A stretch of DNA of 64,000 bases from Chloroflexia bacterium (GCA_036399775.1 DASWMJ010000053.1:94069-158068); one strand, 5' to 3'; positions 3,858-61,275 are shown, counted from the stretch's first letter. Program-made: numbers and translations. The notes: a model not told the origin generated them from the sequence alone.

Positions 3858-6242
3858 CTACTTCTGGGGGTAGGGTTGGTCTTCGGATTGGCCGTCCGCA
3901 GGTATTGATTGGCCCTCCGTTGCCGTTTGCTGCTCTCCTGCGAGGTCTACGCTACCTGGCGCGTCCGTGCCTGAGGGCGTTTCACAGTTGGGGAAGAAGG
4001 TGTTAGACACTATCTTCGATACCTGCCCCCTGGTAGCGTTGTTGTTCGGACGGAAGTAGGGCAGGTTGTCCGCGCTGCAAGGCTCGTTCGCGCCGCCGCA
4101 TGGGTAGCCGCCGATGAAGCCCCGGCCTGCGAGGCGCTGTATCCAGGTGTAGAAGCTGTTGGAAGGCGGTACGTCCTGGAACATCTGGTCGCCTACGGCA
4201 TCATTGATACCGGCTGCGTTGGACACTATCTTCGAGATCTGTCCTCTAGTAGCAGGAGCATTAGGTCTGAAGTATGGGTAGTTGTTGGGAGGTATGCATA
4301 GCTGCTCAGGCACAATACCACATTCATAGCCACCCATATACCCGTGCTGAGACAAGCGGTTCACCCAATCATAGAATGGACTACCAACCGGCACGTCTTC
4401 GTAGATCCGAGGACCCCGATCTTCTGAGAAGCCGGCAGCGTTGGAGACGATCTTGGCTATCTGCCCTCGCGTTACAGCGTTTCCTGGGCGGAATGAGCCA
4501 TCCGAGTACCCTGAGATTATGTCTTTACATGCCAGGCACCTTATGTATATAGAGAATGTCGAGTCTTCGGGTACGTCTGCGAAGGTGATGGCACATGCTG
4601 TAGGAGCTCCTATAGTAGCCGAAGGCATTGCTGTAGGGGTGTAGGGTGGGATGGTAGGAGTACCGGTAACGGTAGCTGAGCGTGTATTGGTGGGGCTTGA
4701 CGTTGAAGATGTAGAGCTAGGAGTACCGGTAACGGTAGCCGAGCGTGTATCGGTGGGACTTGACGTTGAAGATGTAGAGGTAACAGTGGCCGATGCGGCG
4801 GGGTTGGTAGAGCTTGGTGAGGGAACGCTTGTGGAAGTACGCGGCGGCACGCCGCCTGTTGGAGTATTTGACGGTCGGACAGTTGGTGGCGTGCCGGTCA
4901 CCGTCGGCGTGAGAGTGGGCGGAATAGGCGATGGGGTCGGAGTGGGGCAGAAAGTGCCGTAATGCTCGGTGACAGGAGACTCGGGGCCACCCACCGCCCA
5001 CAGGTCGAGTGGTCCTACAGCAGCTATCCCCTCAATCGCGGCGTATTGTCCAAGCCAGGGATTATTCACCACGCTCCAGGCTGAACCGTTCCAGTGCTCG
5101 AACAACGCCCCGCCCGCGCCGTCGGCCACGCGGCCAACTGCCCAAATATCGTCCCAGTCAAGCGCCACTACGTCGTTGAGCAAGGGAGTACCGGCGATAC
5201 CAGGAACAGGTGTGATCTCCCAGGCGGAGCCGTTCCAATGCAAAATCAGATGACCATTTACGTTGGAGTGTCCCACCGCCCAGAAATCATTTGGCCCCAC
5301 CGCAGTTACATTATTCAGGACGTTGGCATACTCATCGAAGTTAGGACTTGAGACCGTTTGCCAGGTAGAGCCATTCCAGTGCATAGTCAGCGTGCGGTTC
5401 GTGTTGCCATCTCCCATGGTACCTACGGCCCAGATATCATCAGGCCCCGCAGCCGCTAGGCCGGACAGGGCACTGGTCACACCCGGACTTGGGCTGGGCA
5501 CGTGCTGCCACACGGACCCATTCCAGTGCAGTATCAGGCCCCTATTGTTCCCGGTAGGATCGGTGCCCACGGCCCACACATCATTAGAGGAGATGGCTGT
5601 GACTTCGCGCAGAATGCCATTAACGGGTGGTGTCACGACGCTCCAGGTGCTCCCATCCCAGTGCTCGATCAAAGTAGGAGAAAAGTCAGAGGTGCCTGAC
5701 ATGCCAACGGCCCAGACATCGTTGGGTGCCGCCGCAGCGACTCCAAAAAATTGATTGAGGCTCCCAGGGTTGGGACTGGGGACAATGGACCATGCTGTGC
5801 CATCCCAGTGCTCGGTCAACGTCCGATAGGCACCATTGACGACGTAGACGCCTACCGCCCAAACATCGCTTGAAGAAATGGCTGCGACGTCATACAAGCC
5901 GTGGTACGCCAGGGAAGGACTGCCCACAACACTCCAGCATCCACCGGCTGATGGAGTTGCCGTTGGCCGCGTCGCCGTGGGGGTCGCTGTACGGGTGGGG
6001 CTGATCGTGGGTGTGGCCGTTGGAGGCGTGCCTGTGTTGGTGGAGGTGGCTGTGGGTGGTGTGCCGGTAACACTGGGTGTTGGGGTAGCAGTCGGTAGCT
6101 GAGTATCGAGCACAGCTAGAGGCTTGCCATGTTCGTTAGAGGTGACTTGCGCGTAAGCCGGTTGGGCCAGGGGCGTGGCCGCGCCTATCAGCATTAGCAC
6201 AAGGCCCGCACCAAAGGAAATCAGACTGTGACGTTTGCGCAT
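3858..6242 (-). CDS. secreted cell-surface protein: beta-propeller-like HWDG/DVWAVG repeats, Thr/Pro/Ser linkers, three SLH domains
   Basis: 794-aa ORF with AAGGAG upstream of ATG 6242 and a signal peptide (LVLMLIGAATPLAQPAYA). About 7 repeats of the form HWDG..W..VPSP....DVWAVG. The C-terminus has 3 SLH-like units (F.DVP....Y..I..L...G...GY.D..FRP....TRGQ..KIVSN). Confidence 0.8.
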   Translation of the reverse strand: MRKRHSLISFGAGLVLMLIGAATPLAQPAYAQVTSNEHGKPLAVLDTQLPTATPTPSVTGTPPTATSTNTGTPPTATPTISPTRTATPTATRPTATPSAGGCWSVVGSPSLAYHGLYDVAAISSSDVWAVGVYVVNGAYRTLTEHWDGTAWSIVPSPNPGSLNQFFGVAAAAPNDVWAVGMSGTSDFSPTLIEHWDGSTWSVVTPPVNGILREVTAISSNDVWAVGTDPTGNNRGLILHWNGSVWQHVPSPSPGVTSALSGLAAAGPDDIWAVGTMGDGNTNRTLTMHWNGSTWQTVSSPNFDEYANVLNNVTAVGPNDFWAVGHSNVNGHLILHWNGSAWEITPVPGIAGTPLLNDVVALDWDDIWAVGRVADGAGGALFEHWNGSAWSVVNNPWLGQYAAIEGIAAVGPLDLWAVGGPESPVTEHYGTFCPTPTPSPIPPTLTPTVTGTPPTVRPSNTPTGGVPPRTSTSVPSPSSTNPAASATVTSTSSTSSPTDTRSATVTGTPSSTSSTSSPTNTRSATVTGTPTIPPYTPTAMPSATIGAPTACAITFADVPEDSTFSIYIRCLACKDIISGYSDGSFRPGNAVTRGQIAKIVSNAAGFSEDRGPRIYEDVPVGSPFYDWVNRLSQHGYMGGYECGIVPEQLCIPPNNYPYFRPNAPATRGQISKIVSNAAGINDAVGDQMFQDVPPSNSFYTWIQRLAGRGFIGGYPCGGANEPCSADNLPYFRPNNNATRGQVSKIVSNTFFPNCETPSGTDAPGSVDLAGEQQTATEGQSIPADGQSEDQPYPQK
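4655..4780 (-). repeat. 2 x 63-nt tandem repeat in the Ser/Thr linker
   Basis: Units at 4655-4717 and 4718-4780 differ at a few positions. They encode SSTSSPT(D/N)TRSATVTGTP twice. Confidence 0.85.
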
Positions 6243-6650: not shown

Positions 6651-9600
6651 TCAGGGCGTTTCGCAGTTGGGGAAGAAGGTGTTGGACACGATCTTCGACA
6701 CCTGCCCCCTGGTAGCGTTGTTGTTAGGGCGGAAGTAGGGCAGATTGCTCGCGCCGCAAGGCTCGTTCGCGCCGCCGCAGGGGTAGCCGCCTATGTAGCC
6801 CCGGCTTGCCAGGCGCTGCACCCACAGGAAGAAGCCGTTGGTGGGCGGTATGTCCTCGAAGAGTTGCCCTGGCGGGTCGTCGTTGAAGCCTGCTGCGTTG
6901 GAGACTATCTTCGAGATTTGGCCCCTGGTAGCGTTGTTGTTGGGGCGGAAGTATGGCTTGCCGTCCGCGCCGCACGGTTCATTCGCGCCGCCGCACGGGT
7001 AGCCACTGATGAAGCCCCGGCTCGCCAGGCGCTGTACCCACAGGAAGAAGCCGTTAGCAGGCGGCACGTCCTCGAACATCTGCGCCCCTGGCTCGTCGCT
7101 GAAGCCTGCTGCGTTGGACACTATCTTGGATAACTGCCCGCGTGTGACGTTATTGCCCGGACGGAACGTGTTGTCGGAGTAGCCGCCCAGGATGCCCCGG
7201 CAGGCAAGGCAGCGCACGAACGAATAGAAAGTGCTGCCCTCCTGCACGTCCGAGAACTGCAAGTCGCACGGCTGGATGCCAGGTGTCTCGGTGGGGATTG
7301 GGGTCTCGACCGTAGGCTCCACGATAGGCGTGTCTGTAGCTGTGGGTTCAATCGTCGCCGTTGCCCCGCCTGGCGTCTGGGTAGGTCGTGGCGTGCTTGT
7401 GCGCGTGGCCGACGCTGGAATAGCTGTGTTGGTACGTGTGGCTGTGCGGGTAGGAGATGGCGGTACAGCCGTTCTGGTGCGCGTGGCAGTAGGAGGGACC
7501 GGCGTGTTGCTCGGCACGCGGGTGGCAGTTGCTCCACCAGGTGTCTGAGTAGGTCGCGGCGTGCTGGTGCGAGTAGCTGTGGGCGCGATGGGTGTGTTGG
7601 TGCGCGTGGCCGTGCGCGTAGGCGATGGGGGTAAGGGGGTAGCGGTGCGGGTAGCGGTGCGAGTAGGCGAGGCAGCTATTGGCGTATTGGTGCGCGTAGG
7701 AAAAGGCGCGACTGGCGTATTGGTGCGCGTAGGAGAAGCTGCGATAGGGGTATTGGTACGAGTCGCCGTGCGGGTGGCGGTCCGCGTAGGTGATGGAGCA
7801 ACTGGCGTATTGGTGCGGGTAGCCGTTATGGTAGCTGTGCGCGTAGGCGACGGCGCGACTGGCGTATTGGTGCGCGTGGGTGAAGGCGGGACGACAACTC
7901 CCAGCCTGGCGATGAAGGAGTCCGTGGTGTTCACTCCGTAAGGGCTGTTCGACAGGTACCCATTCACTACAGGGAAGTCTGCGGCATCCGTGCTGCCCAC
8001 CACGTATGCGTTGCCTGCGCTGTCTACGCTGATGCCCGCCGCCGTATCGTTGGGCGCACGCGGGCCGTCTGCGGCCCCTCCACCCAGGTAGGTCGAGTAA
8101 ACGAGGGACGCATTCCCGGTGGAAGCGTTCGGGTTGAACTTCGCTACAAATGCATCGCCTGTACCGTCCTCAAGCCTGTAGCAGCCACCGCACGTACTCT
8201 GATATGCGTCGCGGAGTGGGAAGGGGGGAGCGACACTCTGCGGGGTGTTGGTATGTCCGGCTACGTAGATGTTGCCCGCGCTGTCAATATCTACGCCTTT
8301 GATCGCGTCTCCCCAGAGGCCGCCGAAGCTGGAGCCATAAGTTACAGCGGCAGTACCGGAGAGATTGGTATTGATCCTGAGGACCCAACCGTCGCCATTG
8401 CCGCCATAATAACCCTGGTATGCATTGGTGGTAAGATAGACGAGGCCGGCGCTTTCCCCTGCCAGGTAGGCGTTGCCCGAAGCATCGGCAGCTATAGCGC
8501 GACCGTAATCCTCATTGACGCCGCCTATGTAGCTGGAGTATTTGTATGCGTTGACACCGGAGCTATTCGTGTCGAGCTTCACCAGGAAAGAGTCGCACTC
8601 ACAGAAGTACCCTCCATTATTCTCGTCCTGTAGCCCGTTAGGTGTGAACGGCAGATCGCTTGAGCTGGTGTCGCCGGTGACGTAGGCGTTGCCCAGTCCA
8701 TCCGTTGCAATCCCGTAACCATAGTCGAGGCCGTTGCCCGAGTAGATTTCAGAATAGATCAGCGAGGTATTGCCTGCGGACGCCGTGTTGATGCGGGTTA
8801 TGAAAACGTCCGGTGCGGCTTCGGGAGCATAGTAGCCGTTGCGGGTAGGGAAATTGGGCGACTCGGTGGAGCCTGTGATGAAGGCTTGCGTGCCACTGAC
8901 CGCGATGGCCTTGCCGTCGTCCGAGCCGGTGCCACCCAGGTAGGTCGAATATAGCAGGGCGGTGCCGCCTGCGTTGAGCTTTGCCAGGAAAACATCCTCC
9001 CCAGGTTGGTCCCCCTGGTACGCGCCCAACAGGGGGAAGTTGGTCGAGAGAGTCTGCCCCACTACATAGGCGTTACCGGATGCATCCACCGCGATGCCCC
9101 TGCCGAAATCATTGTCATTGCCGCCCAGGTAGGTGGAGTAGACGAGGGAAGGCACGCCTGCCGCGTTGGTGTTGGTCTTGGTAACGTATGCATCGAAGGT
9201 AGAGGCTCTTGCGCCCTGGTATGCGCCTGGATTGGGCAGGATCGGGAAGTTGGACGAGCCGGTTACGCCGGTGGTCCAAACGTTGCCCGCGTCGTCGGAC
9301 GCTATAGCAAAGCCCGCGTCGTCGCCGTTGGTCCCCAGGTAGGTAGAGTATAGGATCGTAGGATCGATAGTAAGAGGCTGCGAGGGGTCGTAGCTGTCCA
9401 GGAGGAAGCCGACAGTGTTGCCGGGTTGCAGCGCATAGCTCACGCTGACGGGCACCTGCTTCCCATTTACCGTTTGCCAGGCTATGGGCGCTTGCTCCGT
9501 CACCGTAACAGCCTGGCCTCCATTTGCCGCGCACGCCACGATGACGAGGTTGCCCGCGCTGTCTACGCTCACCGATGCGGCTCCATCATAGCGCCAGCGT

Positions 9601-10193
9601 ATGAGGTTGGGATCAACTCCTGGGGCGACTGTATAGGTGCCTTTCAGTTGGCCGCCGGTACCTGTGTATGCCAGGTTGATGCCCGGATAGAGGCCGGAGT
9701 AGGTGATGTTGGCGTAGGTGGGCAGGCCCGCGTTCCAATCGGAAGGATCGTCGCCTATCAGATAGTTGACTTTCCCCGGCAGGAGCGTGTCGCCTGCTAA
9801 AGACGGGGCGGGGTTGGAGCCTACGAATTGCATACGCACTACGCTTGGTGGTAAGGCGGCAACGATGTCAAGCGACGCGCTTTCCCTGGCGTCCAGGGCC
9901 TGCACAGGGGCGGACGCGAGCGATAGGACTACCTCGGAAGGGGTGAAGTACATTACGCCTCCCCGCGCGTGCGCCATAAAGCGGACCTGAGGGTCGGTGT
10001 GCCCGGCGTTCGGCTCGAATGCGAGGGGTAGTTTTCCGAGGTTGGGTTCCGCCAATTGCAGGGTTGAGTTCTTCGCGGGCGAGAGCGTACTGCCCGGGGA
10101 CAGCGGCCCGGCTTGAGCGCCTAACAGGGCCGCTACCGCCAATATTGTGGGCATCAAAGGCTTTGTGCCCTGTCGTACAGATTTGACCAGCAT
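6651..10193 (-). CDS. secreted surface protein with SBBP-type beta-propeller repeats, PT-rich linker and three SLH domains
   Basis: 1180-aa ORF with a signal peptide. Many D.(S/A)GN.Y(V/L).G.T.S.(D/N)FP repeats (SBBP-like). The linker is a TRTNTPVAPSPTRTATRTA-type repeat and the C-terminal triple-SLH cassette spans 6651-7257. Confidence 0.85.
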   Translation of the reverse strand: MLVKSVRQGTKPLMPTILAVAALLGAQAGPLSPGSTLSPAKNSTLQLAEPNLGKLPLAFEPNAGHTDPQVRFMAHARGGVMYFTPSEVVLSLASAPVQALDARESASLDIVAALPPSVVRMQFVGSNPAPSLAGDTLLPGKVNYLIGDDPSDWNAGLPTYANITYSGLYPGINLAYTGTGGQLKGTYTVAPGVDPNLIRWRYDGAASVSVDSAGNLVIVACAANGGQAVTVTEQAPIAWQTVNGKQVPVSVSYALQPGNTVGFLLDSYDPSQPLTIDPTILYSTYLGTNGDDAGFAIASDDAGNVWTTGVTGSSNFPILPNPGAYQGARASTFDAYVTKTNTNAAGVPSLVYSTYLGGNDNDFGRGIAVDASGNAYVVGQTLSTNFPLLGAYQGDQPGEDVFLAKLNAGGTALLYSTYLGGTGSDDGKAIAVSGTQAFITGSTESPNFPTRNGYYAPEAAPDVFITRINTASAGNTSLIYSEIYSGNGLDYGYGIATDGLGNAYVTGDTSSSDLPFTPNGLQDENNGGYFCECDSFLVKLDTNSSGVNAYKYSSYIGGVNEDYGRAIAADASGNAYLAGESAGLVYLTTNAYQGYYGGNGDGWVLRINTNLSGTAAVTYGSSFGGLWGDAIKGVDIDSAGNIYVAGHTNTPQSVAPPFPLRDAYQSTCGGCYRLEDGTGDAFVAKFNPNASTGNASLVYSTYLGGGAADGPRAPNDTAAGISVDSAGNAYVVGSTDAADFPVVNGYLSNSPYGVNTTDSFIARLGVVVPPSPTRTNTPVAPSPTRTATITATRTNTPVAPSPTRTATRTATRTNTPIAASPTRTNTPVAPFPTRTNTPIAASPTRTATRTATPLPPSPTRTATRTNTPIAPTATRTSTPRPTQTPGGATATRVPSNTPVPPTATRTRTAVPPSPTRTATRTNTAIPASATRTSTPRPTQTPGGATATIEPTATDTPIVEPTVETPIPTETPGIQPCDLQFSDVQEGSTFYSFVRCLACRGILGGYSDNTFRPGNNVTRGQLSKIVSNAAGFSDEPGAQMFEDVPPANGFFLWVQRLASRGFISGYPCGGANEPCGADGKPYFRPNNNATRGQISKIVSNAAGFNDDPPGQLFEDIPPTNGFFLWVQRLASRGYIGGYPCGGANEPCGASNLPYFRPNNNATRGQVSKIVSNTFFPNCETP
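7345..7895 (-). repeat. tandem/nested repeats encoding the Pro/Thr/Arg linker, including a ~174-nt duplication
   Basis: PPSPTRTATRTNT.I....ATRTSTPRPTQTPGGATAT occurs twice (nt ~7363-7460 and ~7537-7640), plus many shorter TRTNTP(V/I)A units. Confidence 0.75.
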
Positions 10194-10334: not shown

Positions 10335-10450
10335 AGGGGTTCGGTAGGGGTCAGGGGTCAGAAGCGAACGTGAACCGTGAAACCTGATGCGTGAATCCAG
10401 AATAACCCTGGTCCTTGACCCCTGATCCCTGGCCCTGACCCCTGGTCCCT
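10335..10450. repeat. heptad-register hairpin element (GGGGTCA / CCTGAYC arms, CGTGAAM loop)
   Basis: aggggtcaggggtcag ... cgtgaaccgtgaaacc ... cctggtccttgacccctgatccctggccctgacccctggtccct. It lies in the leader of the regulator gene. Confidence 0.8.
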
Positions 10451-10463
10451 ATGCGGAGCACGA

Positions 10464-13094
10464 ATGAACGATGTGGCGTCCTTTGGTCGGTGGCTCAGGC
10501 AGCGTCGCCAATCTCTGGAGCTTAGCCGGGAGGACCTGGCGGAGATCGTGGGCTGCGCTCGCGTGACCATCGCCAAGATCGAGCAAGACGAGCGGCGGCC
10601 CTCAAGGCAGGTGGCGGAAAGGCTGGCCGAGGCGCTCAAGCTGCCCGCTGACGAGCGCGACGGCTTCATACTGTGGGCGCGGGGCGTTGCTGAAGAGGTA
10701 GCGCCCTCACTGCCCTTCCAACCTGCCTCTCCGCACCCGGCAATCCAACCCGGTCTCCCAATAAGCCCCTCAGCGCCCACGCCCAGGGAAGCGCCCCATC
10801 AGCAGCTTTCCACGCCGCCCGATACCATGCCTGCGTCTACCACTTCCTTTATCGGCAGGGCGCGGGAAGTAGCGAAGGTGCGTAGCCTGCTCTGGAGGGC
10901 CGACGTGCGCCTCCTTACGCTTACCGGCCCTCCCGGCATCGGCAAGACGCGCCTGGGCATGGCCGTAGCTGCTTCGGTACGACAAGACTTCGAGCATGGA
11001 GTGTGCTTCGTCGCCCTCTCATCTCTCAATGATGCAAGCCTGGTCGCTCCCACTATCGCGCAGACGCTCGGTTTGAAGGAAGTATCGGGGCAGGCCGTCG
11101 AAGTCACGCTCCAAACCTACCTGCGCGATAAGCAGATGCTCATGCTGCTGGACAATTTCGAGCAGGTCATACAGGCAGCGCCTCTGGTGTCGAATCTCAT
11201 GTCCGGCGCGCCCGGCTTGAAGCTCATGGTGACGAGCCGAGCCGTGCTGCACGTATATGGCGAGCACGAGTTTGTAGTTCCGCCGCTTGATCTTCCCTAC
11301 CCGAAGAAGCTCCCGGCGGTGGATGAATTGTCGCAGTGTGAGGCGGTAGCGCTCTTCACGCAACGCGCCCAGGCCGTGCAGCCAGGCTTTGCTTTGACAA
11401 GAGAGAACGCGCAGGTGGTGGCGCAGATATGCGTGCGCCTGGACGGGCTACCCCTCGCCCTGGAGCTTGCGGCGGCGCGCACCAAGCTGTTCACGCCCCA
11501 CTCTATGCTGGCGCGCCTCAACCAGAGGCTTTCGCTGCTGACCGGCGGACCCAGGGACCTGCCCGCCCGCCAGCAAACTCTGCGCGGCGCGATCTCCTGG
11601 AGCTACGACCTGCTCTCCGAGGATGAGCAAACCCTCTTCCGCAGACTGTCCGTCTTCGTAGCAGGCTGCACGCTCGAAGCCGCAGAAACTGTATGTGAAT
11701 TTGGAATTTCGGATTTCGAATTGCGAAATGAAAATGAACGAGAAACAAATTCGAAATTCGAAATCCGAAATTCCAAATCAATAGGCGTTCTTGATGGTTT
11801 GGCTTCGCTAATGGATAAGAGCCTGTTGCGGCAGGAGGATGCGAGCGGTGGAGAGCCGCGCTTCGTGATGCTTGAGACGTTGCGGGAATATGGTTTGGCG
11901 CAACTGGCGGAACGGGATGAGCTTGACATAATGCAACGCCATTACGCTGCTTATTATCTCGCGCTGGCCGAGCGTGCTGAGCCGGAATTGCGTGGGCCTG
12001 AGCAGGGGGTATGGCTGGCGCGATTGGAACAGGAGCATGATAATCTTCGCGCGGTCTTTCGCTGGGCGCTCGATGCGGGCGAGCAAGAGATAGCCTTGCG
12101 CTTGGGCGGCGCGCTTGGGCGGTTCTGGTACACGCGCAGCTACCTGGTTGAAGGGCAACAATGGCTCGATGCGGCACTCTCGGAGAGCGAGGACGCGGCT
12201 CCGGCGATTAGAGCAAAGGCCTTAGGCTCAGCAGGCTCATTGGCCCTGCTACAGAATGAGCATACGCGGGCAAGAGTGCTCATGGACGAGAGTCTGCGTC
12301 TTTGGCAGGTGGTAGGGGACCCCGCGAGCATCGCCAGGGGTATGAGCAACTTGGGCGCGGCGATTGCCATCCAGGGCGACTTCTCCCACGCTACTTCCCT
12401 CTTCGAGCAGAGCATGGAGATATGGCGAGAGGTGGGCGACGACTGGAACCGCGCGCTTTCCCTCGCCAATATGGGCTTCGCCATGCTCTGTCAGGGTGAC
12501 TATGAGCGTTCGGGTGCGTTATGCGCCGAAAGCCTGGCTATACGGCGCGTGCTAGGGGATACGTCCGGCATCACACTTTCCCTCATCAACCTGGGACTCG
12601 TGCCCTTGCACCAGGGCGACTACAGGCGAGCCATAGAGTTGTTCAAGGAAAGCATAGAGCTGGCACGCGAGTTGGGCGACAGGCGCAATGTAGCTCTAGC
12701 CTACACTTACCTCGGCCTCTCGGCATTGCGCCTGGGGGAGTACGAGCAGGCTTCTCATTACTACCAAGAGAGTCTGACTCTGTCCCGCGAGATTATGCAC
12801 AAGTTCGGCGTTGCCCGCACCTTCCTGGGGATGGCGGGTATCGCCTTCGAGGGAGGGCAGGTGGAGCGCGCCGTCAGCTTGTGCGGCGCTGCCGATGCCC
12901 AGTATGACAACCTCAACGTAAGCCTCACCCCGGCAGAGCGCGCCCTCCACGAGAAGACCCTTGATGCAGCGAAGTCCCGGTTGGACGGCGCAACCTTTGC
13001 CAAAGCCTGGGAAGCGGGCCAGGCCCTCTCCCTGGATGAAGCCGTTAACTACGCTAGGGGTCAGGGACCAGGGATCAGGGGTCAGAGGGAGTAA
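10464..13094 (+). CDS. STAND-type transcriptional regulator: XRE-family HTH + NB-ARC/AAA ATPase + TPR repeats
   Basis: 876 aa. HTH segment is LSREDLAEIVGCARVTIAKIEQDERRPS. Walker A is GPPGIGKTRL and Walker B-like is MLMLLDNFEQ. A long C-terminal TPR-like array follows (ALRLGGALGRFW...). It is a paralogue of 17284-19851. Confidence 0.85.
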   Translation: MNDVASFGRWLRQRRQSLELSREDLAEIVGCARVTIAKIEQDERRPSRQVAERLAEALKLPADERDGFILWARGVAEEVAPSLPFQPASPHPAIQPGLPISPSAPTPREAPHQQLSTPPDTMPASTTSFIGRAREVAKVRSLLWRADVRLLTLTGPPGIGKTRLGMAVAASVRQDFEHGVCFVALSSLNDASLVAPTIAQTLGLKEVSGQAVEVTLQTYLRDKQMLMLLDNFEQVIQAAPLVSNLMSGAPGLKLMVTSRAVLHVYGEHEFVVPPLDLPYPKKLPAVDELSQCEAVALFTQRAQAVQPGFALTRENAQVVAQICVRLDGLPLALELAAARTKLFTPHSMLARLNQRLSLLTGGPRDLPARQQTLRGAISWSYDLLSEDEQTLFRRLSVFVAGCTLEAAETVCEFGISDFELRNENERETNSKFEIRNSKSIGVLDGLASLMDKSLLRQEDASGGEPRFVMLETLREYGLAQLAERDELDIMQRHYAAYYLALAERAEPELRGPEQGVWLARLEQEHDNLRAVFRWALDAGEQEIALRLGGALGRFWYTRSYLVEGQQWLDAALSESEDAAPAIRAKALGSAGSLALLQNEHTRARVLMDESLRLWQVVGDPASIARGMSNLGAAIAIQGDFSHATSLFEQSMEIWREVGDDWNRALSLANMGFAMLCQGDYERSGALCAESLAIRRVLGDTSGITLSLINLGLVPLHQGDYRRAIELFKESIELARELGDRRNVALAYTYLGLSALRLGEYEQASHYYQESLTLSREIMHKFGVARTFLGMAGIAFEGGQVERAVSLCGAADAQYDNLNVSLTPAERALHEKTLDAAKSRLDGATFAKAWEAGQALSLDEAVNYARGQGPGIRGQRE
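11699..11778. repeat. perfect 24-bp inverted repeat (32-nt loop) of the GGATTTC/GAATTTC heptad family, inside the CDS and translated
   Basis: Left arm 11699-11722 is atttggaatttcggatttcgaatt. Right arm 11755-11778 is its exact reverse complement. It shares a 25-nt identical core, gaatttcggatttcgaattgcgaaa, with 61185-61209. Confidence 0.9.
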
Positions 13095-13209
13095 GCGTTC
13101 ATAACAAGGATGTCTCAAGCCTTTGCTTTATCCCTTACGTCACGGGTTAGGGGCCACCGCGACATATCGCTTTGTCGCCTAACCCCTGACCCCTGGCCCC
13201 TGACCCCTC
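13056..13209. repeat. inverted pair of CAGGGAY-type heptad tracts bracketing the gap between convergent genes
   Basis: 13056-13090 is aggggtcagggaccagggatcaggggtcagaggg and 13178-13209 is cctaacccctgacccctggcccctgacccctcg. The left tract encodes the last ~12 codons of the regulator. Confidence 0.8.
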
Positions 13210-13214: not shown

Positions 13215-15578
13215 TTACCGACTATCGCAGTTGGGGTAGAAGGTATTGGCTACTATCTTGGAGACCTGGCCCCTTGTCGCGTTGTGGTTGGGACGGAAGT
13301 AGGGCAGGTTGCCGCCAACGCAAGGCTCGCCTGCGCCGCCGCAGTTGTAGCCGCCTATGTAGCCTCTGCTGGCAAGGCGCTGTATCCAGTCGTAGAAGCC
13401 GTTGGAGGGCGGCACGTCCTGGAACATCTGGCTACCTGCCGGGTCGTTGAACCCTGCGGCGTTGGAGACTATCTTGGAGATTTGGCCGCGTGTGGCGTTA
13501 GCGTTTGGCCTGAAGTAGGGCAGACCGCTCCCAACGCAAGGCTCGCCCGCGCCGCCGCAGTTATACCCGCCGATGAAGCCCCGGCCCGCGAGACGCTGTA
13601 CCCAGGTGTAGAACCCGTTCGAGGGCGGCACGTCCTGGAACATCTGCTCGCCCACAGCATCGTTTATACCGGCGGCATTCGATATAATCTTCGATAGCTG
13701 GCCGCGTGTGACGTTGGCGTTCGGGCGGAATGTGCAGTCGCTATACCCGCCGATTATGCCCCTGTTCGAGAGGCAGGTCACGAACGGGTGGAAGGTGCTG
13801 CCGGTGGGTACGTCGCTGTATTCGCCCGGCGTGCAGATAACAGGTGTAGGCGATGGCGGTGGTGGCCCACCACTGCACGATGGGAACTTGAACGAGCCTA
13901 TGCGCGTCTTCCACTCCTGTCCGAAACTGTCGTGGTATTCCTGGGTGTACCAGAAGGTGCAATCATCGCTGGGGTCCACAGTGAGGTCGCTGTAGTCGCC
14001 CCAACGCCCCTGCCCATTGCTGGCGGTCTGCGACCCGCTGCCGGAGATCAGCGTAGCCTCTCCCTGGCCCATAGTGCCCAGGGGATCGCCCGCCAGCCGC
14101 CCTGCATAGCGCACGCCCGGATAGACCGTCGCGCCCGTGCCGCCGGTTGACACGCTATAACCTATCGCGATGTTGCCGCGCCTGTCCATAGCGATACTCC
14201 CCATCCAGCGATGTATACCGTCGGTAGCCCCAGGCGCGTAGGTGCCCTGCTGGTAGATAGTGGGAGTGCCGCTGAGGTTGCGCAACTCGTACCAACGCTC
14301 GCCCGCGTAATTATTGGCGTTGACGTTGTGCAGCAGCACGAGCGATTGATGGGTGCCGACGTTGCGGTATGCGGCGCGGTACATCAGCCGGTCACCGATG
14401 CCGTCAAGCCTCGTGGTAGTGCCCGGCTGCGGGATGCAGTACTGGCACAACTCCGTGAAATTAGCTACGTCCAGGTTGGTGGGTCCCGTCCAGGTTGAGT
14501 TGGAAGGGGTCGCCCAGTCTACGTGGAACTTGTATATCTTCATTGGGTCGCCCATCATGGCGAAGGGATTGGGCGCGCCCGACGGCGGCGCGGTAGGGCC
14601 GTCCAGGTCGGCGGGCATAACCAGGCTGGAGCTTGTGCCGAGCGGGCCGGAGTTAGTCTGCATCGAGGCGCTCTGGCCGAGCAGCATCTTGGCGCGTTCA
14701 AAGACGTATGGCTGGCTGCCTGCGTAGCTGTTGCCGTTGAACTGGTTGACGCCCATGTAATAGCCGTCAGGCCACATTCCGAAGTGGGGGTAGTCCGGAA
14801 AGATGGTGCTGCTCATGAAGAAAGAGTACACCCAGTAGCTGCCCGTCGCGTCCGCCGTTTGCGAGATGGCAATACATTCATAGTAAGGCGCTTCTGCAGT
14901 GAACTGGCTCAGCAGCCACCTGTCTGCAAGCTGGTCGTACAATACTATGGGGTCGCCATCGTTGCGGTCGGCGCACTGTCCGCCTGTGCTCGCCCACAGA
15001 GCGTTGATGTTTGTGGGGGCAATGAGCGCGAGGCCGTTCTTGTCCCATATCTGGATAGCGGAGTTGACCATCTGCACGTAGTGGTTGGGCCCGACCTCCC
15101 CGTTGGTATCGGGCGGTATACCGCTACCGGCATTCGCCAGGTCCATACCATCGAAGTTCCTGATAGGCGCGGGCATGGCGGCGGGAGCAAGCGCGCCCAC
15201 CGGGTTCATTACTGATTGGATCACCGGGTCGGGCGCATCTACGTGCCCGAACAGGGGTATGCGGTCGTGCTCGTTCTCCGCCCAGACCTTCTTGTTAGCC
15301 ACGTCAACGGCGGGCAGGTCGCGGAGGGGCGGGGAGAGCGTCGGGGCAACCGGCTCGCTGGCCAGGATGCCGTTCGCGGTGGGTAGGTTGGTCCAGATGT
15401 CGCGCACCGGGGACTTGGCCTTAACGGCAGAGTTCTGCCCTACGACAATCGGGCCGAAGGGGCGTTGCTGGGGCGCTGTTTGCGTGGCGCTGCCAGCTAG
15501 CAAGAACCCTCCAAATGTCACAACCGCCAGGAGAATAGCGGTCAATAGCGCCGGGACTATACGTTTTGAATGTGCCAC
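13215..15578 (-). CDS. secreted protein of unknown function with three C-terminal SLH domains
   Basis: 787 aa, GTG start at 15578 with AAGGAG 7 nt upstream, and a signal anchor. The N-terminal ~580-aa domain has PPDTNGEVGPNHYVQMVN and RWGDYSDLTVDP motifs (propeller/sialidase-like by recall, unverified). The SLH cassette spans 13215-13821. Confidence 0.8.
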   Translation of the reverse strand: MAHSKRIVPALLTAILLAVVTFGGFLLAGSATQTAPQQRPFGPIVVGQNSAVKAKSPVRDIWTNLPTANGILASEPVAPTLSPPLRDLPAVDVANKKVWAENEHDRIPLFGHVDAPDPVIQSVMNPVGALAPAAMPAPIRNFDGMDLANAGSGIPPDTNGEVGPNHYVQMVNSAIQIWDKNGLALIAPTNINALWASTGGQCADRNDGDPIVLYDQLADRWLLSQFTAEAPYYECIAISQTADATGSYWVYSFFMSSTIFPDYPHFGMWPDGYYMGVNQFNGNSYAGSQPYVFERAKMLLGQSASMQTNSGPLGTSSSLVMPADLDGPTAPPSGAPNPFAMMGDPMKIYKFHVDWATPSNSTWTGPTNLDVANFTELCQYCIPQPGTTTRLDGIGDRLMYRAAYRNVGTHQSLVLLHNVNANNYAGERWYELRNLSGTPTIYQQGTYAPGATDGIHRWMGSIAMDRRGNIAIGYSVSTGGTGATVYPGVRYAGRLAGDPLGTMGQGEATLISGSGSQTASNGQGRWGDYSDLTVDPSDDCTFWYTQEYHDSFGQEWKTRIGSFKFPSCSGGPPPPSPTPVICTPGEYSDVPTGSTFHPFVTCLSNRGIIGGYSDCTFRPNANVTRGQLSKIISNAAGINDAVGEQMFQDVPPSNGFYTWVQRLAGRGFIGGYNCGGAGEPCVGSGLPYFRPNANATRGQISKIVSNAAGFNDPAGSQMFQDVPPSNGFYDWIQRLASRGYIGGYNCGGAGEPCVGGNLPYFRPNHNATRGQVSKIVANTFYPNCDSR

Positions 15579-15813: not shown

Positions 15814-15897
15814 AGGGATCAGGGATCAGGGATCAGGGATCAGGGACCAGGGACCAGGGACCAGGGACCAGGAGTCAGAGCCTGACTCCTGGTCCCT
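15814..15897. repeat. tandem heptamers (4 x CAGGGAT, 4 x CAGGGAC) plus an 11-bp hairpin
   Basis: Read directly. The hairpin is ccaggagtcag-agc-ctgactcctgg at 15868-15892. Confidence 0.9.
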
Positions 15898-25105: not shown

Positions 25106-25130
25106 CGCATGCATCTGGGAATTGGACGTT

Positions 25131-33967: not shown

Positions 33968-33984
33968 TGTATGCTTTCCTTCCT

Positions 33985-34139
33985 GATGCGTGAAACGTGA
34001 TACGTGAAAACTTTACTCCCTCTTGATAATCTCAGAGTCTCTGCGCTTCTGCAGCTTAATCCTAACTATCTTTGCGAACTTTGCGTTTCTTTGCGTCTTT
34101 GAGGTTACGTAATTACGTTGCACGTTTCACGTTTTACGC
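33985..34139. repeat. composite palindromic element, copy 1 (CGTGAAA-heptad arms, B-box, 37-nt C-box)
   Basis: Arms are gcgtgaaacgtgatacgtgaaaac and gttgcacgtttcacgttttacgc. The B-box is tctctgcgcttctgcag. The C-box at 34070-34106 is ctttgcgaactttgcgtttctttgcgtctttgaggtt. Confidence 0.85.
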
Positions 34140-41135: not shown

Positions 41136-42215
41136 ATGAGAGGAAACCAAGTGACGCATTCAGACACAGGCAAGGCCGCGATCATAGACCAACCCGCGGA
41201 TAGCGCTGATTGGGAGATACGCCCCTATAGAGAGGGCGACCTTCCTGCTATCGTGGCTCTTATCAATATGGTAAACACCACTTATAAGCTGAACCTGGTT
41301 ACGACCGAGGAGAACTTGCGCCGCGATTTCGAGAGTCCGCGCTCCGACCCTGCCCGGCAAGTACTCATAGTAGAGGGGCCGAGGCGCGAGGGCGTGCCTG
41401 GCGGCACGATACTGGGTTGTGGGCGCATCACATACGACGACGTTGCTGAGACCAGCGAGCGCATTTACTACCCCCGCGTGGTGGTCCACCCTTCTGTAGA
41501 GAGGCAGGGCCTTGAGAGGGAGATAGCGCGCCGCTTGATAGAGATAGCGCGTGAATACGAAGCAGACCCGACCTTCCCACACATGGAGAAAGTATGGCTG
41601 AAGGCCTATACACGCGAGGAGCTTGTGCCCGTGTGTGAGCTATGGGGAGCGGCGGGCATGAAGGAGGTCCGGCACTTCTGGGTGATGGCACGTCCCCTGG
41701 ACATGCCTGTGGACGAGCCGCAGCTAATCGAAGGGGTGAATATACGCACATACAAGAGGCCCGAAGACAACGAGCGCGCGAAGGCGGCCTTCGAGAATTC
41801 CTTCTCGGACCACTGGGACCACCACCCCATCACCCAGGAAGATTGGGACTACTGGACCAATACGCCCAACACGCGACCCGACCTCTCATGGCTGGCCGAA
41901 GTGGAAGGCGAGCCGGGAGCTATCGGAGGCTTCTGCATCATCTCGATCTCTGATGAAGAGAACAGGCTCAAGCGTGTGCGCGAGGGTTGGATCGAATTGC
42001 TCGGCACGACAGCCGAGTGGCGGCGCAAAGGGCTGGGCCGCGCCCTGCTGCTGCACGGCCTCCATTCGCTCAGGAGCGCGGGTATCGAGGTAGCTTTATT
42101 GGGCGTCGACTCGCAAAGCCTGACGGGTGCCAATCGCCTGTACGAGTCGGTAGGCTTCCGCCTCCGCAGCCGCGAACTCCAACAAGAATGCATGTTGGAC
42201 GAAATCAAATTATGA
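41136..42215 (+). CDS. tandem GNAT-domain N-acetyltransferase
   Basis: Two acetyltransferase-like halves. The second has the RRKGLGRALLLHGL acetyl-CoA-binding motif (R/Q-x-x-G-x-G/A). Confidence 0.7.
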   Translation: MRGNQVTHSDTGKAAIIDQPADSADWEIRPYREGDLPAIVALINMVNTTYKLNLVTTEENLRRDFESPRSDPARQVLIVEGPRREGVPGGTILGCGRITYDDVAETSERIYYPRVVVHPSVERQGLEREIARRLIEIAREYEADPTFPHMEKVWLKAYTREELVPVCELWGAAGMKEVRHFWVMARPLDMPVDEPQLIEGVNIRTYKRPEDNERAKAAFENSFSDHWDHHPITQEDWDYWTNTPNTRPDLSWLAEVEGEPGAIGGFCIISISDEENRLKRVREGWIELLGTTAEWRRKGLGRALLLHGLHSLRSAGIEVALLGVDSQSLTGANRLYESVGFRLRSRELQQECMLDEIKL

Positions 42216-42305
42216 ATTACTAATTACTAATTACGAATTATGGATTAGCTCGTTCCTAGCTGGTTTATTTCGCAGGGTAATTCGCAATTAGTAATTCGTA
42301 ATTCC
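42214..42305. repeat. AATTACN-heptad imperfect hairpin between GNAT and hutU
   Basis: Arms are gaattactaattactaattacgaattatgg and gggtaattcgcaattagtaattcgtaattcc, complementary apart from 2 internal mismatches over 27 nt and unpaired 3-nt ends. The left arm begins inside the GNAT stop codon. Confidence 0.8.
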
Positions 42306-58475: not shown

Positions 58476-58515
58476 GGGATTTCGAATTTCGGATATCGAA
58501 TTTCGAATTTTGGGG
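58476..58515. repeat. GGATTTC/GAATTTC heptad tract (half element)
   Basis: gggatttc gaatttc ggatatc gaatttc gaatttt gggg. It starts 2 nt after the stop codon. Confidence 0.8.
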
Positions 58516-61179: not shown

Positions 61180-61184
61180 ATTGC

Positions 61185-61255
61185 GAATTTCGGATTTCGA
61201 ATTGCGAAAACACTCGTTTATACAAGGAAAATTCGCAATTCGAAATCCGAAATTC
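61185..61255. repeat. perfect 24-bp inverted repeat of the GGATTTC/GAATTTC family in the serA 5' leader
   Basis: 61185-61208 is gaatttcggatttcgaattgcgaa and 61232-61255 is its exact reverse complement. The loop is 23 nt, and the element ends 20 nt before ATG 61276. Confidence 0.9.
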
Positions 61256-61275
61256 CAAATCCGTAGGGGGTCACC

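What the first reader, a model, noticed from the sequence alone, without database searches (positions are those of the whole stretch)
11699..11778. Perfect 24-bp inverted-repeat element sits inside, and is translated as part of, a regulator gene
Arm 11699-11722 and arm 11755-11778 are exact reverse complements with a 32-nt loop. The core gaatttcggatttcgaattgcgaaa is identical to the intergenic element at 61185-61209. The reading frame stays open and the element is translated as FGISDFELRNENERETNSKFEIRNSKS. This segment lies in the linker between the NB-ARC/winged-helix part and the TPR part. The paralogue has an unrelated segment there that is 12 aa shorter (VGDDHEGKAYEQKDALD). This points to exaptation of, or tolerance to, a mobile or slippage-generated hairpin within a coding sequence. 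A very stable mRNA hairpin could also stall ribosomes or attract RNases.
Basis: seen in the sequence. Interest (0 to 1): 0.7.

Follow-up and report, generated by a model that had tools for sequence, protein, structure and literature searches.

The report
In-frame heptamer-repeat hairpin in regulator
The 80-base hairpin inside this regulator gene is real: it is one translated but apparently passenger copy of a widespread class of small palindromic repeats built from 7-base units, sitting in a floppy surface loop of the protein, much like the palindromic elements found inside Rickettsia genes.

Summary
Arms 11699-11727 and 11750-11778 pair at 28 of 29 positions (RNA fold -36.5 kcal/mol, z = -7.4), and the frame stays open.

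- **Structure.** Each arm is 4-5 tandem 7-nt units (GRATTTC / GAAATYC). The window holds 12 period-7 arrays with at least five unit types, almost all intergenic. One of them, at 61180-61263, has identical arms but an unrelated loop.
- **Host gene.** It encodes an XRE-HTH / NB-ARC / winged-helix / TPR (STAND) regulator. The insert (aa 412-439) matches the only low-confidence internal loop of the AlphaFold model, between two winged-helix helices.
- **Orthologue.** A syntenic orthologue (87% aa identity) has an element at the same site. Its loop is recognisably related, but its arms use a different unit (GGATTTT) and are still self-complementary.
- **Selection.** dN/dS is 0.13 for the gene and about 1.05 for the insert.
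- **Recurrence.** Other family members carry in-frame heptamer arrays or hairpins of other units in this same loop. One relative has such a hairpin in an aminotransferase that 16 orthologues lack.
- **Distribution.** Hairpins with the same arms occur in many phyla, including filamentous cyanobacteria.

Verdict: a tolerated, translated passenger copy of an STRR/REP-like heptamer hairpin element. I found no support for a role of the peptide. It is a new variant of known kinds.

The parts
11697..11727 (+). Left arm: tandem heptamers GAATTTG GAATTTC GGATTTC GAATTGC GAA, translated as EFGISDFELR
   Evidence: Tandem Repeats Finder gives period 7, 4.4 copies. Inverted-repeat pair I2. Sequence read.
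11728..11746 (+). Hairpin loop, locus-specific. It shares ACGAGAAAC and ACAAATTC with the loop of the orthologous element in L001.
   Evidence: It is unrelated to the loop of the 61180 copy.
11747..11778 (+). Right arm: tandem heptamers AAATTCG AAATTCG AAATCCG AAATTCC AAAT, translated as NSKFEIRNSK. It mirrors the order of unit variants in the left arm.
   Evidence: Period 7, 4.6 copies..
10464..13094 (+). Host gene, a STAND-type regulator of 876 aa: XRE HTH (aa 7-66), NB-ARC (aa 135-382), winged helix and TPR. The insert corresponds to aa 412-439.
   Evidence: Pfam. AlphaFold2 model with pLDDT below 50 at aa 415-438. dN/dS 0.135 against orthologue P0002.
61180..61263 (+). Sister copy of the same element family: identical 25-nt left and 24-nt right arm cores with a different loop. 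It lies between a T-box-like leader terminator and the ribosome-binding site of a serA-like gene.
   Evidence: Fold -39.4 kcal/mol, z = -7.8. Context.
58479..58510 (+). Single (unpaired) array of the same unit type (ATTTCGA), just after the stop of a cyclophilin gene.
13056..13208 (+). Second heptamer hairpin (AGGGRYC units). Its left arm supplies the last 12 codons and the stop of the same regulator gene (tail GQGPGIRGQRE*).
   Evidence: The orthologue ends differently.
10346..10450 (+). Heptamer hairpin (AGGGGTC units) in the spacer upstream of the regulator gene. Its position is conserved in L001, but the inner content differs.
15814..15897 (+). Heptamer array and hairpin (AGGGAYC, 8.4 copies), intergenic.
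42208..42304 (+). Heptamer hairpin (GAATTAC units), intergenic.
33984..34138 (+). Heptamer hairpin (CGTGAAA units) enclosing CTTTGCG-type arrays, intergenic. Similar elements lie at 44008-44140 and 60258-60393. The CTTTGCG-type hairpin itself is at 56321-56456.

Best explanation
The feature is one copy of a dispersed class of small palindromic repeats. Each arm is a short tandem array of 7-nt units. The arms are separated by a loop that is poorly conserved or specific to the locus. These elements are overwhelmingly intergenic.

**Why this copy survives inside a gene (three reasons).**
- It lies in a disordered surface loop between two helices of the winged-helix domain.
- The GRATTTC unit and its complement contain no stop codon in any frame. 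Because 7 and 3 share no factor, an array is read in all three phases of the unit, so frame-independence matters.
- The net length keeps the downstream frame.

The encoded 27-28 residues are a neutral passenger.

**Why the hairpin stays nearly perfect (inferred, not shown).** I attribute this to DNA-level processes rather than selection on the peptide. The processes would be:
- slippage among the tandem units;
- correction of imperfect palindromes by replication template switching, the known quasipalindrome mechanism;
- copying or conversion between family members.

Together these would make the arms turn over in concert while the loop stays with the locus.

**Shown:** membership of a repeat family, tolerance in a disordered loop, neutrality of the peptide, and retention of the hairpin across orthologues.

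**Inferred:** the homogenising mechanism, and the absence of a regulatory role.
For: **A dispersed repeat class.**
- Period 7 is special in the window: 12 arrays, against 0-3 for periods 4-12 and 0.01 per shuffle.
- Only one element lies wholly inside a gene.
- The arms are identical at 11704-11728 / 61185-61209 and at 11756-11779 / 61238-61261, with unrelated loops.
- Alignment A3 shows an ~80-nt family shared by the window and two other Chloroflexia MAGs. Some loops are near-identical at different loci, and the flanks are unrelated.

**Tolerated in a functional gene.**
- AlphaFold2 pLDDT is below 50 at aa 415-438 only, flanked by confident winged-helix helices and the wing.
- dN/dS is 0.135 for the gene, 0.125 downstream of the insert, and 1.05 in the insert.

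**Hairpin retained across orthologues.**
- The orthologue L001 has an element at the same site with a related loop. Its arms are GGATTTT / AAAATCS and form a 19-bp stem (z = -2.9), even though dS is 0.47 between the two genes.

**Same behaviour at an intergenic site.**
- The orthologous spacer upstream of the serA-like gene in 17 relatives holds hairpins with different units or none. Some genome pairs carry near-identical units there (L106/L110, L108/L111, L115/L118).

**Lineage-specific gain in another gene.**
- L119 has a (GGATTTC)n hairpin in frame in a class-V aminotransferase (z = -9.3). It is absent from 16 orthologues.

**Evidence of purifying selection on frame and stops.**
- In L005 the unit whose TGA would fall in frame is mutated.
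- In L002 a GAATTAC array, whose complement carries TAA, is not paired with its complement.

**No sign of RNA-level selection.**
- Over 22 transcribed hairpins the antisense strand was the more stable in 14 and the sense strand in 8. G.U pairs numbered 44 (sense) against 58 (antisense).

**Precedents.**
- Paired inverted heptamer arrays, positionally conserved but variable in sequence and 7-11% intragenic, are described in Xanthomonas (PMC4692102).
- In-frame palindromic elements are described in Rickettsia (PMC10969869).
Against: - The same winged-helix loop carries heptamer arrays or hairpins in a large share of the closest family members. Of 93 homologues I could anchor, 31 have an expanded loop, and at least seven unit types are confirmed at DNA level. 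This is more than simple tolerance predicts unless the loop is exceptionally permissive. It could instead mean targeting or function.
- Hairpins stay near perfect in genes that diverged long ago. One example is P0016 (z = -7.6), whose paralogue P0066 is 51% identical and carries the same unit type. Active maintenance of some kind is therefore required, and selection is not excluded.
- No transposase, no target-site duplication and no master element were found, so the copying mechanism is unknown.
- The same arm sequences occur in genomes of 34-70% G+C from many phyla. Slippage and drift alone do not explain this.
- No expression, proteomic or population data were available.
Confidence: 0.62

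Rival explanations
1. The hairpin is kept at this position because it does something as nucleic acid. It might act as an mRNA structure that pauses translation between the NTPase module and the sensor module, or that recruits a double-strand RNase. It might instead act as a DNA cruciform or recombination joint at the module boundary of an expanded paralogue family.
For: - Heptamer arrays or hairpins with different units recur in exactly this loop across diverged family members.
- The hairpin is retained in the orthologue although the peptide evolves neutrally.
- In a related MAG, hairpins of this class sit in every intercistronic spacer of a ribosomal-protein operon. They are therefore transcribed and tolerated in highly expressed mRNAs.
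Against: - Several coding copies have decayed or are not hairpins at all: L004 z = -1.6, L002 z = -0.9, and the left arm of L102 is eroded.
- Many close homologues have an empty 15-residue loop.
- No excess of G.U pairs or stability on the sense strand in 22 transcribed copies.
- No terminator-like tail at the element.
- The same 'same site, different unit, or none' pattern is seen at an ordinary intergenic spacer.
Confidence: 0.2
2. The heptamer arrays act as a slippage-driven frameshift (phase-variation) switch. Gain or loss of one 7-nt unit shifts the frame by one and truncates the protein inside the element. This would remove the winged-helix recognition part and the TPR sensor in a fraction of cells.
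For: - Simulated -7 and +7 changes in the left arm give stops at codons 438 and 425, inside the element.
- Unit number differs between orthologous elements.
- Slippage at short tandem repeats is the established mechanism of bacterial phase variation.
Against: - Every homologue I could inspect is in frame. That is partly circular, because the homologues are predicted full-length proteins.
- The arrays are short (4-5 imperfect units), which slips rarely.
- The same elements are mostly intergenic, where no frame exists.
- No population data.
Confidence: 0.08
3. The inserted peptide has been exapted as a functional protein segment, for example a helical hairpin or an interaction loop.
For: - The frame is kept.
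- Three heptamers encode a 7-residue repeat.
- AlphaFold2 assigns a short helix to aa 415-424.
Against: - dN/dS is about 1.05 in the insert against 0.13 in the gene, and 11 of 25 aligned residues are identical.
- pLDDT is below 50.
- Peptides at this site in homologues are unrelated and follow the heptamer unit.
Confidence: 0.04
4. The feature is an assembly artefact, or the gene is a pseudogene.
For: Inverted repeats can cause misassembly. The window comes from an uncultured organism.
Against: - An independent assembly (L001) has an element at the same codon position, in frame.
- L002 and L003 are the same locus, with an array at this site, from two independent assemblies. The extracted loop DNA gave identical results for both.
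- There is purifying selection downstream of the insert.
- Hairpins of this class also occur in isolate genomes such as Microcoleus and Cylindrospermum.
Confidence: 0.02

Closest known systems
Heptanucleotide tandem repeats: STRR sequences of filamentous cyanobacteria, and the GGGNATC repeats of Xanthomonas and Nostoc (Rehm et al. 2015, PMC4692102)
   Same: - Tandem 7-nt units, typically about 4 copies, dispersed and mostly intergenic.
- Often close to start or stop codons.
- In Xanthomonas, 70-75 cases are paired in inverted orientation.
- Positions are conserved between related genomes while length and sequence vary.
- A minority are intragenic.
- GGATTTT-armed hairpins of the kind found in the orthologue also occur in Microcoleus, Cylindrospermum and Desmonostoc.
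   Different: - The unit here (GRATTTC) is AT-rich with no G-tracts, so the G-quadruplex interpretation does not apply.
- The host is an uncultured member of the Chloroflexia.
- The element is a complete hairpin translated inside a gene.
- No paper in the searchable library links heptamer repeats with Chloroflexi.
Rickettsia palindromic elements (RPEs)
   Same: - Palindromic repeats inserted in frame in otherwise conserved protein-coding genes.
- They are translated and sit where the fold tolerates them.
- The same families also occur intergenically (PMC10969869).
- The aminotransferase case in L119 is a direct analogue.
   Different: - RPEs are about 100-150 bp with a conserved encoded peptide and are not built from tandem heptamers.
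- Here the arms are tandem arrays, the peptide is not conserved, and the loop is locus-specific.
- No sequence relationship to RPEs was tested or is expected.
REP/BIME and REPIN elements, and MITEs in general
   Same: - Short dispersed palindromes of about 80 nt, abundant in intergenic and intercistronic spacers.
- Family members share arms within a genome.
- Presence/absence polymorphism between relatives.
   Different: - No RAYT or other transposase nearby.
- No target-site duplication.
- Arms are made of tandem 7-nt units.
- Arms are conserved while loops differ, which is unusual for transposed copies.
Quasipalindrome correction by replication template switching (a mutational mechanism described in E. 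coli; cited from my own knowledge)
   Same: It would explain why the arms stay perfectly complementary while their sequence changes, and why there is no strand-specific (RNA) signature.
   Different: This is a mechanism, not an element family. It was not demonstrated here and has not been tested in this lineage.

Membership tests
Heptanucleotide tandem-repeat class (STRR / Xanthomonas-Nostoc heptamer simple-sequence repeats) | Head-to-tail repeats of a 7-nt unit, about 3 copies or more | tested here: met
   Tandem Repeats Finder gives period 7, 4.4 and 4.6 copies at 83-88% matches.
Heptanucleotide tandem-repeat class (STRR / Xanthomonas-Nostoc heptamer simple-sequence repeats) | Many dispersed copies, over-represented relative to other periods, mostly non-coding | tested here: met
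   12 period-7 arrays in 64 kb, against 0-3 for periods 4-12 and 0.01 in shuffles. Only one element is wholly inside a gene.
Heptanucleotide tandem-repeat class (STRR / Xanthomonas-Nostoc heptamer simple-sequence repeats) | Pairs of arrays in inverted orientation close together (as in Xanthomonas) | tested here: met
   Described for Xanthomonas in PMC4692102.
Heptanucleotide tandem-repeat class (STRR / Xanthomonas-Nostoc heptamer simple-sequence repeats) | G-rich unit able to form a G-quadruplex (the GGGNATC subclass) | tested here: not met
   The unit GRATTTC has no G-tract. Other arrays in the window (AGGGRYC) do, but they are not this element.
Heptanucleotide tandem-repeat class (STRR / Xanthomonas-Nostoc heptamer simple-sequence repeats) | Host is a heterocyst-forming cyanobacterium (STRR in the strict sense) | tested here: not met
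   The closest genomes are uncultured Chloroflexia MAGs, 68-75% aa identity for a serA-like protein. The same class of hairpin does occur in cyanobacteria.
Rickettsia palindromic elements (RPE) | Palindromic repeat inserted in frame in a conserved protein-coding gene and read through | tested here: met
   Open ORF. Purifying selection on both sides. Translation itself was not shown experimentally.
Rickettsia palindromic elements (RPE) | Insertion at a position compatible with the protein fold | tested here: met
   AlphaFold2 pLDDT is below 50 only at aa 415-438, within a confident winged helix.
Rickettsia palindromic elements (RPE) | Sequence homology to an RPE family, with a conserved encoded peptide | tested here: not met
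   The peptide is not conserved even in the 87%-identical orthologue. Sequence comparison with RPE consensus sequences was not run.
MITE | Terminal inverted repeats | tested here: met
   The arms themselves are 29-nt inverted repeats.
MITE | Target-site duplication flanking the element | tested here: not met
   No direct repeat at the boundaries of 7 aligned family members.
MITE | A parent insertion sequence with the same ends, supplying a transposase in trans | not testable with these tools
   No transposase domain among 33 window ORFs scanned. The rest of the genome is not available.
REP / REPIN | Associated RAYT (Y1 transposase) gene flanked by the repeats | tested here: inconclusive
   None in the 64-kb window. 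The whole genome was not searchable.
STAND NTPase regulators (the host gene): NB-ARC + winged helix + TPR with an XRE HTH | NB-ARC/AAA P-loop module, winged-helix domain, C-terminal TPR array and N-terminal HTH | tested here: met
   Pfam scores above the curated cut-offs: NB-ARC 42.5 bits (cut-off 23.5), TPR_12 111 bits, HTH_31 51.6 bits. The AlphaFold2 model shows helix-helix-wing at aa 404-468.
Any Rfam RNA family | Score at or above the family's gathering threshold | tested here: not met
   Only generic miRNA-precursor models match, far below threshold. The gathering scan of the whole window found two tRNAs only.

The most novel reading that the evidence does not exclude
Heptamer-built hairpins are a single class spanning many phyla. 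Identical GRATTTC or GGATTTT arms occur in Chloroflexota, Acidobacteriota, Cyanobacteria, Planctomycetota, Ignavibacteria and others, at 34-70% G+C. On this reading, an as-yet-unknown and widely distributed machinery writes and homogenises the arms around locus-specific loops. Their recurrent presence at one loop at the NTPase-sensor boundary of STAND regulators would then be targeted or selected. The role could be a +/-7-nt frameshift switch or a recombination joint for swapping sensor modules.
Probability: 0.12. Interest if true: 0.8.

Novelty: new variant of a known kind. Interest (0 to 1): 0.5.

Why it matters
**What it shows.**
- The 'selfish palindrome inside a gene' phenomenon, best known from Rickettsia, also occurs in free-living Chloroflexia.
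- Here it involves a structurally different element: hairpins made of tandem 7-nt units, a class previously described mainly in cyanobacteria and Xanthomonas.

**A simple rule.** Because 7 and 3 share no factor, a heptamer array is read in all three phases of the unit. Only units free of stop codons in both orientations can survive as coding hairpins.

**A clean contrast.** The peptide evolves neutrally while the hairpin is maintained.

**Practical consequences.**
- Such inserts inflate apparent protein diversity.
- They create odd low-complexity peptides in predicted proteomes.
- They can mislead alignment and domain-boundary calls in STAND/NLR-like families.

**Open questions.**
- Why the same arm sequences recur across phyla.
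- Why this one winged-helix loop is hit so often.

Tried and rejected
- **Closer orthologues.** I looked for presence/absence or +/-7-nt alleles. The metagenome scan gave nothing above 53% identity, and the genome scan nothing above 48%. Only one true orthologue (L001) was available.
- **Virus link.** No copies in the viral contigs.
- **Known RNA family.** None.
- **Transposase or RAYT near the copies.** None in the window. TnpB-like genes next to two homologous regulators were not pursued, because nothing ties them to the hairpins.
- **Target-site duplication.** None seen.
- **Loop homology between the two window copies.** There is only a possible inverted ATRAACGAG core. My rough estimate is p ~0.03, so I treat this as inconclusive.
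- **Arms arising around a pre-existing native loop.** In the L119 aminotransferase the hairpin loop begins R-R-N-H...P, against the native R-E-H...P. Nucleotide identity is only about 40% in a variable region, so this is inconclusive.
- **RNA-level selection via sense-strand G.U bias.** Negative.
- **Intrinsic terminator.** Rejected: there is no T-tract and no hit.
- **DNA for more homologues.** Four look-ups returned no DNA because the sample files were too large.
- **Literature.** Elhai et al. 2008, on small dispersed repeats and heptamers in Nostoc, is not held. What I say about STRR beyond PMC4692102 rests on my own knowledge. One literature search was wasted on an ambiguous term.
Full report
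**1. The observation**

The sequence at 11699-11778 is as described.
- The repeat finder extends the pairing to 29-nt arms, 11699-11727 / 11750-11778, with 97% complementarity and a 22-nt loop.
- As RNA the 88-nt segment folds at -36.5 kcal/mol. Shuffles average -15.8 (z = -7.4, 0 of 200 as stable).
- As DNA both strands fold at about -28 kcal/mol, z = -7.8.
- The 12-mer GGATTTCGAATT with at most 1 mismatch occurs 9 times in the window, against 0.15 expected.
- The 24-nt right-arm core is also exact at 11756-11779 and 61238-61261. The loops of these two copies are unrelated.
- The ORF 10464-13094 stays open and reads CEFGISDFELRNENERETNSKFEIRNSKSIGVLDG.

**2. What the arms are made of**

Both arms are tandem heptamers: period 7, 4.4 and 4.6 copies.
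- The left arm is GAATTTG GAATTTC GGATTTC GAATTGC.
- The right arm mirrors it, including the order of the unit variants.

Period 7 is special in this window. My array detector finds 12 period-7 arrays, 0-3 for every other period from 4 to 12, and 0.01 per shuffled sequence.

The arrays form hairpins with at least five different units: GRATTTC, AGGGRYC, CGTGAAA, GAATTAC and CTTTGCG. They lie at 10346-10450, 13056-13208, 15814-15897, 33984-34138, 42208-42304, 44008-44140, 56321-56456, 60258-60393 and 61180-61263. Single arrays lie at 57428-57465 and 58479-58510.

Compared with the long ORFs, all are intergenic except three:
- the element under study;
- the left arm of 13056-13208, which supplies the last 12 codons and the stop of the same gene;
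- 42208-42304, whose first bases overlap the stop of the upstream gene (41136-42215).

**3. The host gene and the site**

Pfam gives XRE-type HTH (aa 7-66), NB-ARC (aa 135-382) and TPR_12 / TPR_MalT. This is a STAND-type regulator. Its homologues are annotated as Chloroflexia proteins.

An AlphaFold2 model built on a 20-sequence alignment has mean pLDDT 83. Within the folded core (residues 130-865), the only segment with pLDDT below 50 is 415-438. The element corresponds to aa 412-439. It is flanked by helices 404-411 and 442-451 and the beta wing at 456-468. The insert therefore sits in a loop inside the winged-helix domain.

**4. Orthologue and selection**

P0002 is 87% identical. It lies on a syntenic contig, L001, with the same neighbours and about 78-80% nucleotide identity.
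- At the same codon position L001 has GGATTTT GGATTTT CGATTTT GGATTTT ... TCTAAAATCGAAAATCC.
- Its loop shares ACGAGAAAC and ACAAATTC with the window's loop, so the two elements are orthologous.
- The arms use a unit that differs by one base (GGATTTC to GGATTTT), with the complementary change in the other arm. They still form a 19-bp stem (z = -2.9).

Nei-Gojobori estimates:

| Region | dN/dS | Note |
|---|---|---|
| Gene without the insert | 0.135 | dS 0.47 |
| NB-ARC part | 0.081 | |
| Part downstream of the insert | 0.125 | |
| Insert | 1.05 | 25 aligned codons; 11/25 identical residues, against 88.5% elsewhere |

The gene is therefore functional on both sides. The peptide is unconstrained. 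The pairing has nevertheless been kept through a concerted change of both arms.

**5. The same loop in other family members**

Among 93 of the 120 best homologues that I could anchor on WSYxLL ... DKSLL, the modal spacing is 49 aa, with loop AVCNADGDLPxDVLD. Thirty-one have spacings of 57-80 aa.

Their extra peptides look like translated heptamers:
- ELRIENEELR...ILNSQFSILN
- MEDGGWRMED...SSILHPPSSIL
- DFGLRILD...NPKSKIQN
- DWGSGTGD...SPVPDPQSP
- ITNYEVQITNY

Wherever I could get DNA, this was confirmed:

| Locus | Units at the loop | Hairpin status |
|---|---|---|
| L005 | GAATTGA / TCAATTC | hairpin, z = -4.9 |
| L101 | AGGATGG / CCATCCT | hairpin, z = -7.6 |
| L102 | AGGATGG type | left arm eroded |
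| L004 | TTGCAAA | decayed hairpin, z = -1.6 |
| L002 | GAATTAC array followed by an unrelated CTTCGTC array | no hairpin, z = -0.9 |

Other points:
- Period-7 scores are 9-18 in these loops and at most 5 in all 36 other loops examined, which come from homologues in several phyla and from paralogues of the same loci.
- In a neighbour-joining ordering, insert-bearing and empty-loop proteins are interspersed.
- P0016 and P0066 are 51% identical overall and carry the same unit type.
- A few heptamer-encoded peptides occur at other linkers: the N-terminal linker, a C-terminal junction (PIRKIDQ x3), and the C-terminal tail.
- The winged-helix loop is therefore the main site for these insertions but not the only one.

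**6. A rule for coding copies**

Seven and three share no factor, so an array is read in all three phases of the unit whatever the frame. GRATTTC, GGATTTT and AGGATGG, and their complements, contain no stop codon in any phase. CGTGAAA (TGA) and the complement of GAATTAC (TAA) do.

The data fit this rule:
- In L005 the one unit whose TGA would be in frame is mutated to GAATGAA.
- In L002 the GAATTAC array lacks its complement.

This points to selection against stop codons and frameshifts, not to selection for the peptide.

**7. The class outside this gene**

- **GRATTTC arms.** The pattern GGATTTCGAATT-N(10-40)-AATTCGAAATCC has 38 exact hits in species-representative genomes. The hits come from Chloroflexia, Acidobacteriota (Pyrinomonadaceae, Thermoanaerobaculia), Ignavibacteria, Bacteroidota, Planctomycetota, Methylomirabilota and others, at 34-70% G+C. 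From the pattern's length I estimate about 0.07 hits expected by chance. All are heptamer arrays with varied loops.
- **GGATTTT arms.** Hits include isolate genomes of the filamentous cyanobacteria Microcoleus and Cylindrospermum, and a Desmonostoc MAG. This links the class to the cyanobacterial heptamer (STRR-type) repeats.
- **Operon spacers.** In the Chloroflexia MAG locus L029, each of the six intercistronic spacers examined in a ribosomal-protein operon carries a heptamer hairpin between the stop codon and the next ribosome-binding site. The gene order, read from the translations and not checked with Pfam, is L24, L5, S14, S8, L6, L18, S5.
- **Closest genomes.** These are uncultured Chloroflexia MAGs (68-75% aa identity for the serA-like protein). 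In 17 of them, the orthologous spacer between a conserved T-box-like leader terminator and the start codon holds hairpins with different units, or none. The units seen are GAATTTC, AATTCTT, GAGTKTT, CCGAGTA, GGATTTT and AATTGTA. Some genome pairs carry near-identical units there (L106/L110, L108/L111, L115/L118). 'Same site, different unit' is thus a general property of these elements.
- **Family alignment.** Alignment A3 shows that the window's two GRATTTC copies belong to an ~80-nt family shared with two other MAGs. Some members at different loci share the loop as well (GCTTGGAWATCTACTAAA; AGAAGAAYTCTAAWCAAA). Flanks are unrelated and there is no target-site duplication. Whole elements therefore do get copied.

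**8. An unselected coding example**

In L119, the class-V aminotransferase next to the serA-like gene (Pfam Aminotran_5, 5.5e-23) carries (GGATTTC)4 - 54 nt - (GAAATCC)5 in frame. The fold is -50.3 kcal/mol, z = -9.3. It lies in a loop that is 8-11 residues long in 16 orthologues, including the window's own copy at 63438 onward. This is a clean lineage-specific gain in a conserved enzyme, directly comparable to Rickettsia palindromic elements (PMC10969869).

**9. DNA-level or RNA-level maintenance**

I folded both strands of 22 transcribed heptamer hairpins: coding, 5' leader and intercistronic. The sense strand was more stable in 8 and the antisense strand in 14. G.U pairs numbered 44 (sense) against 58 (antisense). 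There is no sign that imperfections are tolerated preferentially as G.U in the RNA. This favours symmetric, DNA-level maintenance.

Further negatives:
- No terminator-like tail follows the element.
- No Rfam family matches.
- No transposase domain occurs among 33 window ORFs.
- There are no viral copies.

**10. Interpretation**

*Shown:*
- The element belongs to an abundant, mostly intergenic family of heptamer-built hairpins.
- It is read through in a functional gene, at a disordered loop.
- Its peptide evolves neutrally.
- Its pairing is retained while the arm sequence changes in concert.
- Such elements are gained and lost at given sites.

*Inferred:* the arms are kept complementary and homogenised by slippage among units, template-switch correction of quasipalindromes, and copying or conversion between family members. 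The loops stay with the locus.

*Not explained:*
- why this winged-helix loop is occupied so often;
- why the same arm sequences recur across phyla and base compositions;
- what copies the elements.

A one-unit slip would truncate the protein inside the element, so a phase-variation role cannot be excluded. There is no evidence for it.

**11. Comparison with what is known**

- Paired inverted heptamer arrays are described for GGGAATC in Xanthomonas and, less often paired, for GGGGAYT in Nostoc. They are positionally conserved but variable in sequence, mostly intergenic, and 7-11% intragenic in Xanthomonas (PMC4692102).
- In-frame palindromic elements are known from Rickettsia.
- No paper in the searchable library combines a heptamer-repeat term with a Chloroflexi term.
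- I therefore rate this a new variant of known kinds. It is an AT-rich, non-G-quadruplex unit type in Chloroflexia, forming a complete translated hairpin, with recurrent occupation of one loop of a STAND regulator family.

Noticed in passing
window 60961-61159 (+): A T-box leader-like RNA. RF00230 matches over the full model at 42.4 bits, below the gathering score of 93 (E = 2.9e-8). It has a terminator and lies upstream of a 2-hydroxyacid-dehydrogenase + HAD (serA-like) gene. The motif GGGGTGGCACCACGGGC and the terminator are present in most of the 17 Chloroflexia MAG orthologous loci. The 61180 heptamer hairpin sits between this terminator and the ribosome-binding site.
   Followed up: partly
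window 13056-13208: The regulator gene's last 12 codons and its stop lie inside a second heptamer hairpin (AGGGRYC units), giving the tail GQGPGIRGQRE*. The 87%-identical orthologue ends differently (ARGQRDILP*). Heptamer elements therefore also remodel the C-terminus.
   Followed up: partly
L029:3900-6850 (Chloroflexia MAG DASVQO01): Each of the six intercistronic spacers examined in a ribosomal-protein operon holds a heptamer hairpin between the stop codon and the next ribosome-binding site. The units are AATTCTT, GGAATTT, TAGTGGT and ATTTCGA. The gene order (L24, L5, S14, S8, L6, L18, S5) was read from the translations and not checked with Pfam.
   Followed up: partly
L119:3926-4044: An in-frame (GGATTTC)4 - 54 nt - (GAAATCC)5 hairpin (z = -9.3) in a class-V aminotransferase. 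It is absent from 16 orthologues, including the window's own gene at 63438 onward.
   Followed up: yes
Genome-contig loci L029-L066 and L134-L213: Hairpins with identical GRATTTC or GGATTTT arms occur in MAGs and isolates of many phyla: Chloroflexota, Acidobacteriota, Cyanobacteria (including Microcoleus and Cylindrospermum), Planctomycetota, Ignavibacteria, Nitrospira and Geobacter. G+C ranges over 34-70% in the 38 GRATTTC loci. Some genomes hold dozens of copies. The reason for this shared set of units is unexplained.
   Followed up: partly
window 33984-34138, 44008-44140, 60258-60393, 56321-56456: Nested elements. Hairpins with CGTGAAA arms enclose arrays of CTTTGCG-type units, which elsewhere form a hairpin of their own. 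This suggests insertion into, or growth from, hairpin centres.
   Followed up: no
window 40891-41052 and 25128-25183: Hairpins not built from heptamers. A perfect 26-bp palindrome (40949-41003, 3-nt loop) is nested inside a 20-bp inverted repeat. A perfect 23-bp inverted repeat lies between convergent genes (PIN-domain gene and M16 peptidase).
   Followed up: no
window 3858-6242, 6651-10193, 13215-15578, 52589-56116: Four large SLH-domain surface proteins. Three of them (at 3858-6242, 6651-10193 and 13215-15578) lie on the minus strand near the regulator; the fourth (52589-56116) is on the plus strand. BLAST matches link a repeated ~216-nt module in all four, and it shows as a tandem repeat in the genes at 6651-10193 and 13215-15578.
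   Followed up: no
window 28000-32000: A low-G+C stretch (47-50%, against about 60% elsewhere). It holds a 785-aa ORF with no Pfam match and a tRNA at 30884-30957. It may be an acquired island.
   Followed up: no
proteins P0014, P0015, P0016, P0030, P0082: Homologous regulators fused to a DUF4096 (transposase-like) domain. The junction before that domain has a PIRKIDQ x2-3 linker whose 7-residue period suggests another in-frame heptamer array; I did not check the DNA there. IS605 OrfB/TnpB-like genes lie next to two of the homologous regulators I looked up.
   Followed up: no
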